UHGV virus genome: UHGV-1783823
Reading direction: 5' to 3' (one strand)
DNA from: a virus
DNA length: 35,256 nucleotides
How positions within the stretch are numbered: the first letter of the stretch is position 1; each line of letters starts with the position of its first letter. Made by a program: the position numbers and the translations under genes. Below the pieces are notes generated by a model. It saw only the letters and a program-made list of their open reading frames with translations. It was not told the DNA's origin and ran no database searches. Below, piece by piece: positions 18 through 12,368 of the stretch.

Positions 18-6616
<6,599 letters not shown>

Positions 6617-6618
6617 TA

Positions 6619-7806
6619 ATGGCAGTAGGTGAAATTCAAATTAGTGCCTTGCCTCAAGCAGCCTTACCAATTGACCTTAGTGATATCTTCCATCTTAAGC
6701 AGGGTATTGAGGATAAGAGGTGCACTCTTGAGCAATTGCTTGCTCCACACTCAAGCCTAAGAAATAACCCTCATGGTGTTACTAAAACACAAATTGGTTT
6801 AGATAACGTTATCAATGCTCTTCAGTTAGTTGCTGCAAATAACTTATCAGATGTTACTAATGTAGTTCAGGCAAGAGCAAATCTACAGATTATGTCTTCA
6901 GAAGAGGTTAATAATCTTGTTCAACAGCATATTCAGGACAAGAGCAACCCACATAATACAACTAAGGCACAGGTAGGGTTGAGTAATGTTCAGAACTGGA
7001 CAACATCGAACCTTTATAACGAAGATGCAGACAAGTACGCTACAGCAAGAGCAGTAAATAACTTGTACAAGGCTGTTCAGGCTTCCTATCCAGTAGGTAC
7101 TATCCATCTTTCCATGAACTCTGCAAACCCTTCTACATATTTAATTTGTGGAGGAACTTGGGAGTTAGTTTCAAAAGGTAGGGCATTGGTTGGCTATGAC
7201 TCTGATACAAGACCAGCAGGCTCTGTATTTGGTGCTTCAACTGTCACTTTGTCAGTTAATAACATGCCTCAACACTCTCACTCTGTGTCTCTTAGTGGTG
7301 GTGGTCATACTCATAATGCAACGGTGTCAATTTCAGCTTTTGATTATGGAACTAAGACTACTAACTCTTTTGACTATGGAACTAAGACCACTAACACAAC
7401 TGGTAACCACAACCATGTTGGTAGTGGGTCAACAGGTTCTGCTGGTGCTCATAACCACAGATTGACCTATGAATCAGGCGGTGGTTTATCGGAAAGACCT
7501 GCAATGGTTTGGTCTTCAAGGAATGACCAATCATGGTACTCAGCAGATGCTGTCTGTGAAGTAGCTGGTGCACACACTCACTCTTTCAGTGTTACCACTA
7601 ACACAACTGGTAACCACAACCATACGGTTGGTATTGGTGCTCACAGCCACACAGTTGGTATTGGTTCACATACGCACAATGGTACTGTGACAGTTTCTTC
7701 TTCTGAGCATACACATAGCGGGAACACTAACAGTGTTGGTGGTGGACAAGCTTTCAATATTGAGCAGCCATCCTTCGTACTGTATGTATGGCAGAGAACG
7801 GCTTAA
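6619..7806 (+). CDS. Tail fibre protein (short) with His-x-His repeat C-terminal module
   Basis: C-terminal half has repeated HxH motifs (HSHSVS, GGHTHNAT, GNHNH, GAHSHTVGIGSHTHNG) and ends VLYVWQRTA; C-terminal module shared with the next gene; internal 30-bp tandem duplication. Confidence 0.7.
   Translation: MAVGEIQISALPQAALPIDLSDIFHLKQGIEDKRCTLEQLLAPHSSLRNNPHGVTKTQIGLDNVINALQLVAANNLSDVTNVVQARANLQIMSSEEVNNLVQQHIQDKSNPHNTTKAQVGLSNVQNWTTSNLYNEDADKYATARAVNNLYKAVQASYPVGTIHLSMNSANPSTYLICGGTWELVSKGRALVGYDSDTRPAGSVFGASTVTLSVNNMPQHSHSVSLSGGGHTHNATVSISAFDYGTKTTNSFDYGTKTTNTTGNHNHVGSGSTGSAGAHNHRLTYESGGGLSERPAMVWSSRNDQSWYSADAVCEVAGAHTHSFSVTTNTTGNHNHTVGIGAHSHTVGIGSHTHNGTVTVSSSEHTHSGNTNSVGGGQAFNIEQPSFVLYVWQRTA
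7338..7397 (+). repeat. 30-bp tandem duplication inside short fibre gene (encodes FDYGTKTTNS / FDYGTKTTNT)
   Basis: Two adjacent 30-nt units, 7338-7367 and 7368-7397, differing at about 3 positions. Confidence 0.8.
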
Positions 7807-7815
7807 TTTCTTTAC

Positions 7816-7836
7816 AGGGGCTTTATAGCCCCTTTT
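7816..7836 (+). terminator. Rho-independent terminator-like hairpin between the two fibre genes
   Basis: AGGGGCT-TTAT-AGCCCCT stem-loop followed by a T-run; downstream RBS AAGAGG and ATG at 7853. Confidence 0.6.
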
Positions 7837-7852
7837 AAGAGGAAAATTTATA

Positions 7853-10240
7853 ATGGCAGATTACAAGTTGAGTGAATTAAACTCAATCGATACAATCCGT
7901 TCAGATGACCTTCTTCATGTCAGGGTTAAAAAGAGACCTGAAATGCTTGGCGATGAAGACCGTCGAATGACCTATCAAGATTTCTTAGCATCTTTCAAGC
8001 TTGAAAGATTTGTCCAGATTGCTGGTAGTACTATGACGGGTGACTTAGGGATTGTTAAGCTACTTTATGGTGGTAAAGTAGTATTTAACCCAACAGGCTC
8101 TTCTGAGATTAATATTGGGGACGTTTTAAAGACTTTTAAAATTAACGCAAATGGTCTTAAGCTAACTGTTGCAGATGCTTCAAGGTCGGCAACTGTTTAT
8201 CATACTCTGAATAAGCCAAGCCCTAGTGAGCTTGGGATGAGAACTAATGAAGAGAATGACACGAGATACTCAAGATTAGCTGCAAATAACACCTTTAGAG
8301 GTACTCAAGCTATTCTCTCTGACAATGAAGCCCTTATTGTTAAGAATATCACACAAGGGATGCCACTCTATATTCGTGGTCAAGATGCAGATGGCACCAA
8401 CAGATGGTATCTAGGCAATGATAATAAAGGCACAGACAACCTTGTTTTAAAAAACGTTAAATCTGGTGCATACGTAGCGATTTTAGCTAACCTAATCTCT
8501 GTGAATAAATCAATTCAAATCACTGGTCAAGTTCAACCTTCTGATTGGACTAACTTAGATGCTAGGTATTTTACTCAGACAGCAGCTAATCAGAGGTTTG
8601 CACAGTTAGCTGGTGATAATACCTTTAGAGGCGTGAATACATTTAATCAAATCCTATCAATTGAGACGAATAGTGCAGCCTTAAGGTTAAAAAATACTGT
8701 AGCTAATGGTGCACTGTACATTAAAGGTGAAAGTAATGATGGCTCTGGTAAGTGGTATGTAGGTAATGGTGATAATACACCTGCCGTATTAATTCACAAC
8801 TATACATATGGGTCTAATCTTAGACTCGACAATGGTTATGTTGAGGTTAATAAGCAACTTAAAGTCGTTGGTCAAGTTCAACCTTCTGATTGGACTAACA
8901 TTGACTCTAGATATATTCCGGCAGGAACTTTGAGTAATCTTGCTAAGCTAAGTGGTGTAAACACTTTCAGGTCTGCACAGGTTATCAATCTGAATGGCTC
9001 ATTGTTACAGCTAAAGAACACTACACAAGACAGAGAGCTATACTTTGCTGGTCATAATGCTGATGGTGTTAGAAGGTGGTACATCGGTAATGGGGAACCA
9101 TCCAACCCAACAAGGTTTACTATCCGTAACGACAGAACTGCAACTACGCTTTATATGCAAGACGATTTCTTGTTGGATAAAAATGTCAGAATTACTGGTC
9201 AAGTTCAACCTTCAGATTTCTCTAACTTAGACGCTAGATATTTCTTAAAAACAAAAGTGTTATCCCAATCTTTAATGACAAGGACAGCTAATAGGCTGGA
9301 TGACCCATCATCATTCAATAAAGATTATTCGGGATTTGTAAGAAACAATGGTATTGAGCAGGGTCTGAAAGACTTAGCCATCCACGTAGCACACTCTGCT
9401 GGTATTGCTCATGCCAGAGGTATTGCTTTTACATATGGGTCTAAAGGTCTTGATGTCTTCACATATGCTTATGGAGCAGATGGAGCATATGTTGGGGAGG
9501 CACAGTTGTATTCAACGGTATTTAAACCAACCCCTTCAGATATTGGTGCATACACTAAAGCTGAAACTGACCAGAAGATTGCACAGGCAGTAAGTGACTC
9601 TACAGACCTGAATAAAATCTATCCAGTAGGTATTGTAACGTGGTTTAACAGTAATGTTGACCCTAACACAGCGTTGCCTGGGTTAACTTGGACGTACCTG
9701 AACAATGGTGTTGGTAGAACTATCAGAATTGCAGCAGCAAACGGTTCAGATGTTGCTACAACTGGTGGTTCAGATTCTGTAACGTTGGCTGTTGGTAATT
9801 TACCATCACACACTCACAGTTTCTCTGCTACCACTTCATCTTTTGATTATGGTACGAAGGGCACTAATAGTACTGGTGGTCATACTCACTCTGTAAGTGG
9901 TACAACAAGTGCTGCTGGTAACCACGCCCACCACTTAGGTCTGCTATTGGTTAATGGTGGTGATGCTCAGTATGGTTACACAACTGTTAGCAACAGCAAG
10001 ACAAGAACTCTTGACTGGCTTGACAGAAAAGACAATAAATTCCCTAACACTAACACAACTGGTAACCATACACATACATGGTCTGGTACTACAAGCGGTG
10101 CTGGTGACCATTCCCACTCTGTAGGTATTGGTGCTCACAGCCACACAGTTAGTGGTAATACTGGTAGTACAGGTTCTGGTTCAGCATTTAGTGTTACTAA
10201 CCAGTTCTACAAATTAATGGCTTGGGTGAGAACTGCTTAA
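7853..10240 (+). CDS. Long tail fibre protein with three tandem ~110-aa modules and His-rich C-terminal domain
   Basis: 795 aa; three repeats ending [18 protein letters not shown] / [18 protein letters not shown] / [18 protein letters not shown]; C-terminus has HxH motifs and ends LMAWVRTA, paralogous to 6619-7806. Confidence 0.75.
8270..9247 (+). repeat. Intragenic tandem module repeats (3 x ~330-345 bp) in long fibre gene
   Basis: Near-identical 30-mers GGTCAAGTTCAACCTTCTGATTGGACTAAC at 8525 and 8870, and a related copy at 9197; protein motifs LYI[RK]G..DG...WY[LV]GN repeat in register; outer boundaries approximate. Confidence 0.65.
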
Positions 10241-10247
10241 TCCTTTG

Positions 10248-10276
10248 TTGACTGATTGTTAAGATGGTGTTAATAT
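10248..10276 (+). promoter_or_regulatory. Sigma70-like promoter candidate (TTGACT-17 bp-TAATAT)
   Basis: -35 TTGACT at 10248-10253, 17-bp spacer, -10 TAATAT at 10271-10276; a 9-bp inverted repeat (10261-10269 / 10293-10301) overlaps the -10. Confidence 0.4.
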
Positions 10277-10319
10277 TCTTTATGGGTATTCTCACCATCT
10301 TGGCTGATGAGGTGATTAA

Positions 10320-10517
10320 ATGCCTACAATCCTAGCAATTCTTCTAAAAAATCTAGGTAGCTTCTTCTGGAAACTCATTTTATCCCTTCTAAGTGAATAC
10401 ATGATTGAGAAAGTGTTCTTTAGGCTTGCAAGATACCTTGCGAGTAAAACAGACACACCTATTGATGATGAGTTCGTAGATAACTTAGAAAAAGCTTTTA
10501 AGGGGGAGAATAAATGA
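10320..10517 (+). CDS. Small membrane protein (holin-like size; function unproven)
   Basis: 65 aa; hydrophobic N-terminus MPTILAILLKNLGSFFWKLILSLL; RBS GAGGTGA upstream. Confidence 0.45.
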   Translation: MPTILAILLKNLGSFFWKLILSLLSEYMIEKVFFRLARYLASKTDTPIDDEFVDNLEKAFKGENK

Positions 10518-10885
10518 AGTGGCTAGAGGAAGCTTTTAAAAATAATATTGGTGCAATTGTAGTTGGTATTTTTAGTGTTATTGGGATGTATACCACCATG
10601 CAAGTCTCGGATGGTAAACAAGAAGTGTCTATCACAACAAAGTTACAACAGTTAGATAATTATTCCAAAAGTAATTATTCAGCTATTCGTGATTTACAGT
10701 CTGATATGAGGCTGCTTCAGCTAGGGATGGAGAACCAGAAAGTCCAGTTAGAGAATGTTAAAGGTGAGAACGCAAAACTTACTAAAACCCTTGATAAATT
10801 CTCTGATAGTGTGAACAATCTGGCTCAATCAGTATCAGCCCTCCAAGCTATTACTGAAAAGAACACAAAGAGTACTGAAAAGTAA
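10514..10885 (+). CDS. Membrane-anchored coiled-coil protein
   Basis: 123 aa; N-terminal TM segment IGAIVVGIFSVIGMY followed by a heptad-like charged region; ATGA overlap with upstream gene. Confidence 0.5.
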   Translation: MKWLEEAFKNNIGAIVVGIFSVIGMYTTMQVSDGKQEVSITTKLQQLDNYSKSNYSAIRDLQSDMRLLQLGMENQKVQLENVKGENAKLTKTLDKFSDSVNNLAQSVSALQAITEKNTKSTEK

Positions 10886-10890
10886 AGTTT

Positions 10891-10920
10891 AAGGCTCCTT
10901 TTTACGGGAGCCTTTTTTGT
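10891..10920. terminator. Bidirectional rho-independent terminator between convergent operons
   Basis: AAGGCTCC / GGAGCCTT 8-bp stem with 8-nt loop, flanked by T-runs; lies between + gene end 10885 and - gene end 10922. Confidence 0.7.
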
Positions 10921-10921
10921 T

Positions 10922-11821
10922 TTATTTACCTACTGACAAAGGTGCTTCAATCTTTCCTGCATGTTGGTAGTTGTTAATGCCACCAATAAAATCACTTGCA
11001 GTGAGATGTTTTAGGTCACTTAAAGTGTTAAGTGGGATACCAATCTCAAAAGTTGGTGCATGGAACTCTTCATTGTTCATCAGTTCATAAACCTGCTTCA
11101 TATGGTTCTGGTAAATCTGAGTATCCCCAAAGACACCTATCAAGTATCGTGGAGTGTATCCAGTCATCTTACAAAGAACTTCCAGAATAAAACCATAAGA
11201 CGCAATATTAAATGGAAGTCCTAAAAAGGTGTCTACAGAACGTTGATACCATTGTAAGTCAACTTCACCTTCGTTGGTGATATAAATCTGAAACAGAACA
11301 TGACAAGGTGCTAAAGCCATCGAGTTTGCTGCAATATCTGCTGCATTCCAAGCATTAACAAGCATGTAACGGTCTGTGATATCACCTTTCATCTTCGTTA
11401 CTAAGGTTTCTAACTGGTCTACAACACAACCATTATGACCTTCAAAGTTTCTCCACTGAACCCCGTAGATTCTCCCACCTGCATCTTCTAACCAGTCTTG
11501 CTCAGAAGAATAGTTAGAGCTTAACCAACGTTTAAAATCATCTGACCAGATAGTCCAACGTTCTCCATCATTTTCACCCCAAGTGCGATAACGAAGTTCA
11601 CCAAGTTTATTCTCACCGTTCAGAAACCATAAAGCTTCCCCGATAACTTGCCGTGTAAACACCTGTTTAGATGTTAAGAGCGGGAAACCAGTTCTCATAT
11701 CAAAGCGAAACTTGGGTGGAGCAAATGCAGAGATAACATCTCCAGTTCGTGTAGTACGCAGTTCACCAACGGATAAAACATGGTTCAGGATATTTTTGTA
11801 ACTCAAATCAGCTTGTGACAT
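10922..11821 (-). CDS. thyA: Thymidylate synthase
   Basis: Classic ThyA motifs: RTGDVIS, FPLLTSKQV, ALWFLNG, active-site LAPCH, DTFLGLPFNIASY (Asn retained, dUMP-specific); adjacent DHFR. Confidence 0.9.
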   Translation of the reverse strand: MSQADLSYKNILNHVLSVGELRTTRTGDVISAFAPPKFRFDMRTGFPLLTSKQVFTRQVIGEALWFLNGENKLGELRYRTWGENDGERWTIWSDDFKRWLSSNYSSEQDWLEDAGGRIYGVQWRNFEGHNGCVVDQLETLVTKMKGDITDRYMLVNAWNAADIAANSMALAPCHVLFQIYITNEGEVDLQWYQRSVDTFLGLPFNIASYGFILEVLCKMTGYTPRYLIGVFGDTQIYQNHMKQVYELMNNEEFHAPTFEIGIPLNTLSDLKHLTASDFIGGINNYQHAGKIEAPLSVGK

Positions 11822-11822
11822 A

Positions 11823-12368
11823 TCAAAAGTGTCCTTTTACTTGTGGAACATAGATTTCAAAGGTTGCTTTACCATCATCTGAGGGTCTTGACTGCACCTT
11901 TGCAAATACACGGTTATCATACAGTTTATCGAAGAAGTTTTCAAAAGGTAAATATACAGTGGCCTCTTCAGTAACCTTATGGAAAACTGTATGGAAAACT
12001 ACACCAGCATACGGCAAAGCATTGACAAGAACACCTGCACCACCAATTACAAAGATATCTTCATCAATAGAGCTATCAAGGTACTTCAAAAATGCTCCAA
12101 AGGACTCTTTGCTGGCCTTAGCATACATTACATCTTCTTTACCAAAGTCTATACCAAAATATGGCACAGAGTTTGTTAAGATAAGGTTTTCACGTTCTGG
12201 TAAAGGCTTACTACCCAGAGTCTTAAAAGTCTCATTACCCATCACTACTAAGTTATTTTTAGTGAGTCTCTTAAACTCTTGCATGTCCTGTTTATGTCGA
12301 GGCCACGGCATACCAGTTGGAGTACCAAACTCACCATTTTCACCACTTGCAAAGATTAATTTAATCAT
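11823..12368 (-). CDS. folA: Dihydrofolate reductase
   Basis: N-terminal IFASGENGEFG..MPW...D...F, VVMGNETFKTLG, PLPERENLILT, VIGGAGV; 1-nt gap to thyA. Confidence 0.85.
   Translation of the reverse strand: MIKLIFASGENGEFGTPTGMPWPRHKQDMQEFKRLTKNNLVVMGNETFKTLGSKPLPERENLILTNSVPYFGIDFGKEDVMYAKASKESFGAFLKYLDSSIDEDIFVIGGAGVLVNALPYAGVVFHTVFHKVTEEATVYLPFENFFDKLYDNRVFAKVQSRPSDDGKATFEIYVPQVKGHF

What the first reader, a model, noticed from the sequence alone, without database searches (positions are those of the whole stretch)
8270..9247. Three tandem ~110-aa modules inside the long tail-fibre gene
Near-identical 30-mers (GGTCAAGTTCAACCTTCTGATTGGACTAAC) recur at 8525 and 8870, with a related copy at 9197. 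The protein shows three collinear modules (NTFRG...LYI[RK]G..DG..WY.GN...ITGQVQPSD[WF][TS]N[LI]D[AS]RY). Such arrays can expand or contract by slipped recombination and change fibre length.
Basis: seen in the sequence. Interest (0 to 1): 0.45.

Follow-up and report, generated by a model that had tools for sequence, protein, structure and literature searches.

The report
Three shaft domains in phage tail fibre
The repeat is real: it encodes three old, related shaft domains of a Felix O1-type phage long tail fibre, an architecture already described, and related phages almost never change the number of domains but instead swap whole domains at the conserved joints.

Summary
An exact 30-mer (31 nt with the preceding T) lies at 8525 and 8870, with an 87%-identical copy at 9197. 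It sits in gene 7853-10240 (795 aa), the long tail fibre (LTF) of a Felixounavirus and the orthologue of Bas63 gp27.

The three ~110-aa modules are tandem Pfam PF20744 (gp37_trimer) domains with a T7 gp17 pyramid-like beta fold. They are old paralogues: about 40% aa and 53% nt identity. The repeated 30-mer encodes the conserved joint GQVQPSD[WF]xNxDxRY.

A Bas63 cryo-EM paper already describes beta-helix repeat domains separated by helix-turn joints, variable in sequence but not in number.

Copy number is three in about 250 GenBank isolates, 27 IMG/VR loci, 15 of 16 metagenome loci and 118 of 120 protein clusters. Rare exceptions exist:
- two 2-module genes joined exactly in the joint motif, one of which may be a k=31 assembly artefact;
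- syntenic relatives with 4 and 5 modules.

The dominant process is in-register cassette exchange. Module bodies are either about 45% or at least 90% identical between phages, independently of each other. Joint codons are more alike between paralogues than codon usage predicts.

Interest is low to moderate.

The parts
7853..10240 (+). Long tail fibre (LTF) gene, 795 aa; orthologue of Bas63 gp27
   Evidence: ORF. Megablast gives 88-94% identity to Felixounavirus 'tail fiber protein' genes. phrog_4277 matches end to end. Synteny is the same as bas63_0024-0030. The C-terminus matches the T4 gp37 needle 2XGF, E 1.5e-21.
8273..8602 (+). Module 1 (aa 141-250): PF20744 domain plus joint
8603..8944 (+). 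Module 2 (aa 251-364)
   Evidence: The phmmer match to T7 gp17 falls in this module, aa 284-344.
8945..9274 (+). Module 3 (aa 365-474)
8524..8554 (+). Exact 31-nt repeat, copy 1 (inside joint 1; encodes [10 protein letters not shown])
   Evidence: This is the junction of the 2-module variant L001.
8869..8899 (+). Exact 31-nt repeat, copy 2 (inside joint 2)
   Evidence: The junction of the 2-module variant L002 lies in its first 18-23 nt.
9197..9241 (+). Joint 3 motif [15 protein letters not shown] (26 of 30 nt identical to the 30-mer)
8309..8512 (+). Variable body cassette of module 1 (aa 153-220)
   Evidence: Nucleotide identity to relatives is either 75-100% or 42-55%, independently of the other bodies.
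8660..8857 (+). Variable body cassette of module 2 (aa 270-335)
   Evidence: For example, L006 is 99% identical here but 48% and 42% in the M1 and M3 bodies.
8981..9184 (+). Variable body cassette of module 3 (aa 377-444)
6619..7806 (+). Short tail fibre gene (395 aa; Bas63 gp26 orthologue). It shares the HxH needle with the LTF but has no PF20744 modules.
   Evidence: The Bas63 paper gives the STF/LTF assignment.

Best explanation
Region 8273-9274 encodes three tandem, anciently duplicated ~110-aa shaft domains of the Felixounavirus long tail fibre. They are Pfam PF20744 domains with the beta fold of the T7 gp17 'pyramid' domain.

Each domain ends in a conserved joint, GQVQPSD[WF]xN[LI]D[AS]RY, followed by a short helix and the next N-T-F start. 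In the Bas63 structure this corresponds to the 'triple alpha helix and turn' between beta-helix repeat domains. The repeated 30/31-mer is the coding sequence of that joint.

The modules act as rigid spacers that set fibre length (inferred from the Bas63 structure). Their number is held at three in Felixounavirus.

The joints are also the places where recombination reshuffles the gene. Between phages, whole domain bodies are exchanged in register as cassettes drawn from a pool of very old alleles. This is shown as a pattern; the mechanism is inferred. Rarely, out-of-register exchange at the same joints removes or adds one module in frame, giving 2-, 4- and 5-module fibres. The variants are observed; the mechanism is inferred.
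For: **Domain identity**
- PF20744 matches three times: E 8.6e-59, 196 bits.
- A profile of 41 modules hits T7 gp17 residues 368-436 (E 8.4e-8) and the phage Mu fibre 5YVQ residues 354-444, which includes a QVIPGNYANFDSRY joint.

**Gene identity**
- Megablast to Felixounavirus tail fibre genes and synteny with Bas63 gp24-gp30.
- The Bas63 paper describes an LTF with beta-helix repeat domains separated by triple-helix-and-turn motifs. Repeats 2-5 are variable and repeat number is constant.

**Age of the duplication**
- 38-40% aa and 52-55% nt identity between modules.

**Constant copy number**
-.

**Cassette exchange**
- All high-identity HSP ends within 8259-9274 fall in the joints and none in the bodies.
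- Segment identities are discordant: L006 gives 48/99/42% for the M1/M2/M3 bodies, L007 gives 99/47/70%, and L010 gives 43/49/42% with repeat 5 at 94%.
- Pairwise body identity is bimodal (40-60% or 70-100%), while the N-terminus stays at 70-97%.
- 32 of 325 pairs have one body at 90% or more and another at 60% or less.
- dN/dS within allele classes is 0.09-0.21.

**Joint DNA homogenised between paralogues**
- Codon identity at identical residues is 590/903 (65%; 44% expected) in joints. In bodies it is 1045/2171 (48%; 43% expected).
- In the window itself the counts are 30/37 in joints and 40/85 in bodies.
- The chance that 10 codons are identical is 4e-4.
- Motif variants (WTN/FSN/WAN/WSN) occupy different positions in different phages.

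**Out-of-register events**
- 2-module junctions lie in the motif.
- A 4-module orthologue, L032, is present in both ENA and Logan assemblies.
- A 5-module orthologue appears in two independent assemblies that are 99% identical (L031 Logan, L040 SPAdes).
- L031 modules 3-5 carry body types that occupy position 1 in Felixounavirus, at 57-70% identity.
Against: - No experiment or read-level data were available, so recombination is inferred from patterns only.
- The sequences are phylogenetically related, so counts of pairs and codons are not independent.
- The joints are also the most constrained protein segments, so HSP ends would cluster there even without crossovers. The real support comes from the discordance and the codon analysis.
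- Both 2-module genes sit on short Logan contigs (2.4 and 5.2 kb). L001's junction equals a 31-nt exact repeat, so wild-type k-mers alone could yield that contig in a low-coverage k=31 graph.
- No 2-, 4- or 5-module fibre was seen among about 250 GenBank isolates.
- The structure model is a monomer of a protein that is trimeric in reality. Joint residues have pLDDT 61-73.
Confidence: 0.75

Rival explanations
1. A labile tandem array. The three modules would form a slippage-prone repeat whose copy number changes frequently within populations and so tunes fibre length.
For: - An exact 31-nt in-frame direct repeat lies 345 nt apart.
- Two 2-module genes have junctions in the motif.
- 4- and 5-module orthologues exist.
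Against: - Modules are only 52-55% identical in DNA, and TRF finds no array.
- There are three modules in essentially all relatives examined, across lineages down to about 50% LTF identity.
- The literature reports no variable repeat number.
- The 4- and 5-module phages are distant: 44-84% aa identity in flanking genes.
Confidence: 0.1
2. Protein constraint only. The joint DNA would be conserved simply because the peptide is structurally essential and uses preferred codons. The patchwork identities would reflect fast, uneven divergence of tolerant beta-helix surfaces rather than recombination. This is the first possibility raised in the Bas63 paper.
For: - The joint residues are invariant or nearly so across 41 modules.
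- The Bas63 authors list mutational tolerance as an option.
Against: - Conserved residues inside the bodies show no excess of shared codons (48% against 43% expected), whereas joints do (65% against 44%).
- Body identities are bimodal and mutually discordant between phages that are 87-95% identical in the N-terminus.
- dN/dS of 0.09-0.21 within allele classes shows the bodies are constrained.
- The same body type occurs at different positions in L031.
Confidence: 0.12
3. All copy-number variants are assembly artefacts, and module number is strictly fixed by assembly geometry.
For: - L001's junction is the 31-nt exact repeat, equal to the k that I recall for Logan.
- Long Logan contigs with three modules have repeats of only 24-25 nt.
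- Both 2-module contigs are short.
- GenBank REP5 shows that assemblers do break at this joint.
Against: - L002's junction lies in a shared stretch of at most 18-24 nt, so junction-specific 31-mers must exist in the reads.
- The 5-module gene was recovered by SPAdes and by Logan from different samples at 99% identity.
- The 4-module gene is on an 87-kb ENA scaffold and also on Logan contigs.
- The extra modules differ from each other (60% or less), so they are not collapsed or duplicated reads.
Confidence: 0.08

Closest known systems
Bas63 (Escherichia phage JohannRWettstein) long tail fibre gp27, cryo-EM (Sci Adv 2025, PMC12609058)
   Same: - Same genus and the same syntenic gene.
[quoted passage not shown]
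- Repeats are variable in sequence but constant in number across the genus.
   Different: - The paper counts five repeat domains. Only three (modules 1-3 here) are recognisably homologous in sequence; the flanking units gave no hhalign signal.
- The word 'recombination' does not occur in the paper's main text, nor were rarer 2-, 4- or 5-module forms reported in what I read.
- Window module 1 is 59% identical to the Bas63 module.
T7 gp17 pyramid domain (PDB 4A0T/4A0U, 7BOZ) and Pfam PF20744 gp37_trimer
   Same: Sequence-profile and fold matches. The Sf14 paper makes the same comparison for the Ounavirinae longer fibre gp53.
   Different: T7 has one such domain, directly below its receptor-binding tip. 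Here there are three in tandem in the proximal and middle shaft, each with a helix-turn joint.
T4 proximal long tail fibre gp34 rod (PDB 5NXH)
   Different: Structural similarity of the single-domain model is weak, and no sequence match was found. In T4 the shaft and the tip are separate proteins (gp34-37), whereas here they form one chain.
Mosaic tail-fibre genes recombining at conserved motifs (T-even gp37 'His boxes'; cited from my own knowledge of Tetart et al. 1998, not read here)
   Same: Short conserved sequence motifs flank highly diverged segments, and identity switches at those motifs.
   Different: Here the exchanged units are shaft domains rather than the adhesin tip, and the motif is a domain joint repeated three times within one gene. 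That repetition also permits out-of-register events.

Membership tests
Pfam PF20744 (gp37_trimer) | Score above the curated gathering threshold | tested here: met
   196 bits against a cut-off of 21.7, with three stretches. The precomputed PF20744 hit is present on all 120 homologues.
T7 gp17 pyramid-domain fold | Beta-sheet domain superposable on gp17 residues ~371-447 | tested here: met
T7 gp17 pyramid-domain fold | Intertwined homotrimer | not testable with these tools
   Only single-chain prediction was available. The trimeric state is taken from the Bas63 and Sf14 papers.
Felixounavirus long tail fibre (Bas63 gp27 orthologue) | Syntenic position: wedge, LTF platform, STF, LTF, two small genes, then thymidylate synthase on the opposite strand | tested here: met
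   Window ORFs 5457-12368 compared with bas63_0024-0030.
Felixounavirus long tail fibre (Bas63 gp27 orthologue) | C-terminal T4 gp37-like needle with HxH motifs | tested here: met
   2XGF, E 1.5e-21, aa 648-775.
Slippage-prone tandem repeat array (VNTR-like) | High DNA identity between adjacent copies along the whole unit | tested here: not met
   52-55% nt identity. No TRF array. Only 31 nt are exactly shared.
Slippage-prone tandem repeat array (VNTR-like) | Copy number polymorphic among close relatives | tested here: not met
   Three copies in essentially all relatives. There are two exceptions in 120 protein clusters, one of them doubtful.
Motif-mediated mosaic tail-fibre genes | Diverged segments bounded by conserved motifs, with discordant relatedness of adjacent segments | tested here: met
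Motif-mediated mosaic tail-fibre genes | Demonstrated crossover at the motif in a cross | not testable with these tools
   This needs co-infection experiments.

The most novel reading that the evidence does not exclude
The three joints would be nucleotide-level recombination linkers. Their codons are kept alike between paralogues, which lets each shaft domain assort independently from a pool of ancient alleles of about 45% identity. Those alleles would be maintained because the shaft domains themselves face selection from the host, either as secondary surface contacts or as targets of a defence system. Occasional out-of-register exchange at the same linkers would create new fibre lengths (2, 4 or 5 modules) that found new lineages.
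Probability: 0.3. Interest if true: 0.5.

Novelty: already known. Interest (0 to 1): 0.3.

Why it matters
The feature as reported is a tandem series of shaft domains in a Felix O1-type long tail fibre. It is an annotated Pfam domain, and a 2025 cryo-EM study of a congener already describes the architecture.

This analysis adds three modest points.
- The unexplained sequence variability of these shaft domains looks like cassette exchange between old alleles at conserved joints. It does not look like gradual drift: identities are bimodal and discordant, and selection within allele classes is purifying.
- The joint codons are homogenised between paralogous modules.
- Module number, though fixed at three in all cultured relatives, has changed in uncultured relatives and possibly in one sample of a close relative, always at the joint.

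For phage engineering, the joints are natural, in-frame splice points for swapping or adding shaft domains.

Tried and rejected
- **Tandem Repeats Finder** on 6000-12000 found no array with a ~330-nt period, so the copies are too diverged for that tool.
- **Flanking shaft units.** hhalign of the module profile against aa 41-146 and aa 467-576, Bas63's repeats 1 and 5 by position, found no homology (probability below 1%). Only three units can be called homologous by sequence.
- **Experimental evolution link.** I looked for a connection between the 2-module contigs and evolution studies. The 12-h Salmonella Infantis challenge paper reports only point variants in the fibre gene, and SRR8427688 appears in no searchable paper.
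- **REP5.** The four 'places' for GenBank phage REP5 suggested a 4-module isolate. Reading the record showed it is linearised inside the gene with a 77-nt terminal overlap, and it has three modules.
- **L001.** I first treated it as good evidence of a deletion. I downgraded it after finding that its junction equals a 31-nt exact repeat and that long Logan contigs carry only 24-25-nt repeats.
- **Named relatives of the 4- and 5-module fibres.** GenBank has none; best identities are 44% and 49% aa, all to 3-module phages.

Full report

Yes. The 30-mer GGTCAAGTTCAACCTTCTGATTGGACTAAC occurs exactly at 8525 and 8870, with no matches in 100 dinucleotide-preserving shuffles. With the preceding T the exact repeat is 31 nt, at 8524 and 8869. 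The third copy at 9197 differs at four positions. The repeat finder reports a three-copy family of 72 nt with spacings of 345 and 327 nt, which are 115 and 109 codons and therefore in frame.

All copies lie in one ORF, 7853-10240 (+), 795 aa. A protein self-comparison shows off-diagonals at 115, 109 and 224 residues. The three modules are aa 141-250, 251-364 and 365-474. Tandem Repeats Finder sees no array because of this divergence.

**2. What is the gene?**

The window is a Felix O1-like myovirus. The gene matches 'tail fiber protein' genes of 246 phage records, mostly Felixounavirus, at 88-94% identity, though usually over only 63-76% of its length. It matches phrog_4277 end to end.

The gene order is a 285-aa wedge protein, a 100-aa protein, a 395-aa fibre, this 795-aa fibre, two small genes, then thymidylate synthase and DHFR on the other strand. 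This is the order of bas63_0024-0030 in phage Bas63. A cryo-EM study of Bas63 identifies gp26 as a 430-A short fibre and gp27 as a 630-A long tail fibre. The C-terminal 130 residues match the T4 gp37 needle with its HxH motifs (2XGF, E 1.5e-21). The upstream 395-aa fibre shares this part.

**3. What are the modules?**

Each module is a Pfam PF20744 'gp37_trimer' domain: three stretches, 196 bits, against a cut-off of 21.7. A profile of 41 diverse modules (alignment A1) hits T7 gp17 residues 368-436, the 'pyramid' domain (E 8.4e-8). It also hits the phage Mu fibre 5YVQ residues 354-444, whose match runs into a QVIPGNYANFDSRY joint.

[quoted passage not shown] The Sf14 paper compares the homologous longer fibre with the T7 gp17 pyramid domain and Mu gp49. 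By position, modules 1-3 are the Bas63 repeats 2-4. The flanking units showed no sequence homology to the module profile.

The repeated 30-mer encodes [10 protein letters not shown], the start of the joint. G, Q, V, P, N, D and R of the joint are invariant in all 41 modules.

**4. Does copy number vary?**

Almost never among known relatives. The counts were as follows.

| Source | Result |
|---|---|
| 120 best protein clusters | 116 are 781-797 aa long; 118 have three modules |
| IMG/VR loci | all 27 have three modules |
| GenBank phages (tblastn with one module) | 274 records, 778 places; the sampled Ounavirinae rows all show 3 |
| Metagenome loci | 15 of 16 have three (one with a frameshift); one has five |

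The single '4' (REP5) comes from a record linearised inside the gene with a 77-nt terminal overlap. The Bas63 paper likewise reports no variable repeat number among ICTV felixounaviruses.

**5. The exceptions**

*Two-module genes.* P0049/L001 (680 aa) is M1 body + [10 protein letters not shown] + M2 tail, exactly the product of a deletion between the two 31-mers (795 - 115 = 680). P0054/L002 (686 aa) is M2 body + GQVQPSD + M3 tail (795 - 109 = 686). Both are on short Logan contigs.

From my own knowledge, Logan assemblies use k = 31. A 31-nt exact repeat is then a single graph node, and the path across it needs no junction-specific k-mer. With low coverage and tip clipping, wild-type reads could produce L001. 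Consistent with this, long Logan contigs with three modules carry only 24-25-nt repeats. L001 is therefore ambiguous.

L002's junction lies in a shared stretch of 18-24 nt, so junction-specific 31-mers must have been present in the reads. I consider it probably real.

*Four- and five-module genes.* A search of 1.84 billion representative proteins with the module profile found a 1015-aa protein with five modules (P0121) and a 901-aa protein with four (P0122). The true length of P0122 is 931 aa with its upstream start. Both lie at the syntenic position in ~80-87-kb phage contigs.

Their flanking proteins are 44-84% identical to the window's. No close relative exists among 50,697 GenBank phage records. 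The five-module gene was recovered a second time from a different sample by SPAdes, 99% identical through the modules (L040). Its modules 3, 4 and 5 carry body types that occupy position 1 in Felixounavirus (57-70% identity). The extra modules all have the 'IPAxTLSNLAK' tail typical of module 2. This is what out-of-register exchange at the joints would produce.

**6. What happens much more often: in-register cassette exchange**

High-identity HSPs between the window gene and 25 relatives end only in the joints: 8259-8297, 8519-8645, 8857-8967 and 9177-9249. None end in the bodies.

Codon-aligned identities are strongly discordant. The table gives % nt identity to the window.

| Locus | M1 body | M2 body | M3 body | Other |
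|---|---|---|---|---|
| L006 | 48 | 99 | 42 | N-terminus 93 |
| L007 | 99 | 47 | 70 | |
| L013 | 84 | 49 | 80 | |
| L010 | 43 | 49 | 42 | next unit (repeat 5) 94 |

Over 325 pairs, body identities are bimodal (40-60% or 70-100%), while the N-terminus stays at 70-97%. In 32 pairs one body is at least 90% identical and another is 60% or less; only 7 pairs have all three at 90% or more. Within allele classes dN/dS is 0.09-0.21, similar to the N-terminus at 0.10. The bodies are therefore constrained and not drifting freely.

This argues against the first of the three possibilities raised by the Bas63 authors, mutational tolerance. It leaves host recognition or defence evasion open.

**7. Is the joint conserved at the DNA level beyond what the protein requires?**

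Between paralogous modules of the same gene I counted codons that are identical where the residues are identical.

| Region | Observed | Expected from codon usage |
|---|---|---|
| Joints, all genes | 590/903 (65%) | 44% |
| Bodies, all genes | 1045/2171 (48%) | 43% |
| Joints, window only | 30/37 | 44% |
| Bodies, window only | 40/85 | 44% |

The chance of ten identical codons for [10 protein letters not shown] is about 4e-4. Motif variants (WTN, FSN, WAN, WSN) sit at different module positions in different phages, and some phages share 44 nt between modules 1 and 3.

I read this as homogenisation by recombination or gene conversion at the joints. Selection on the nucleotide sequence itself cannot be excluded. 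The sequences are related, so these counts are descriptive and are not independent tests.

**8. Mechanism**

Shown:
- the domain family and fold;
- the gene's identity;
- the age of the duplication;
- near-invariant copy number;
- mosaic, discordant cassettes bounded by joints;
- excess codon sharing in joints;
- the existence of 2-, 4- and 5-module genes with junctions in the joints.

Inferred:
- the modules are rigid spacers that set fibre length (from the Bas63 structure);
- three modules is the selected number, because the retracted fibre docks along the sheath;
- homologous recombination at the joints during co-infection exchanges the bodies;
- rare unequal exchange at the same joints changes the number.

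**9. Comparison and novelty**

The feature is a member of a known domain family in a known protein, and a close relative has been studied by cryo-EM. The 'expand or contract' idea is correct as a rare evolutionary event but wrong as a description of a labile array.

The incremental points are the cassette-exchange reading of the shaft variability, codon homogenisation of the joints, and the 2-, 4- and 5-module forms. In the Bas63 paper the word 'recombination' is absent from the main text. These points fit the long-known mosaic nature of tail fibre genes.

**10. Verdict**

The feature is already known in kind. Interest is 0.3.

Noticed in passing
window 6619-7806 and 9800-10240: The short-fibre and long-fibre genes share HxH needle-coding repeats. 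An exact 27-mer, GGTATTGGTGCTCACAGCCACACAGTT, lies at 7630 and 10124, and several 60-90% repeat families link the two genes. These could mediate exchange between the two fibre genes.
   Followed up: partly
window 7337-7395 and 7387/7594: Inside the short-fibre gene there is a 30-nt tandem duplication encoding SFDYGTKTTN twice (TRF score 104). There is also an exact 30-mer repeated 207 nt apart.
   Followed up: no
window 9275-9517 and 9902-10096: The unit after module 3 (aa 475-555) and the needle tip (aa 684-748) also behave as cassettes, with 30-100% and 28-97% nt identity to relatives. Some relatives (P0071, P0082; 855 and 857 aa) carry a longer, unrelated middle domain.
   Followed up: partly
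L031 6001-9048; L040 1755-4982; L032 5911-8706: These are uncultured Ounavirinae-like phages with 5-module (two samples) and 4-module long tail fibres. No close relative was found among 50,697 GenBank phage records; best identities are 49% and 44% aa.
   Followed up: partly
L039 3057-5464: In metagenome contig CYGL01000008.1 the long-fibre gene is split by a frameshift just after module 1. This could be a sequencing error or a pseudogene.
   Followed up: no
L052/L053 (GenBank OQ174504.1, phage REP5): The deposited 'complete genome' is linearised inside the long-fibre gene, with a 77-nt terminal overlap at the module-3 joint. The gene is therefore annotated as two partial tail fibre proteins.
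   Followed up: yes
P0002 (99% identical to the window protein): The JGI source names this tail fibre 'protein tyrosine phosphatase (PTP) superfamily phosphohydrolase (DUF442 family)', which looks like a misannotation.
   Followed up: no
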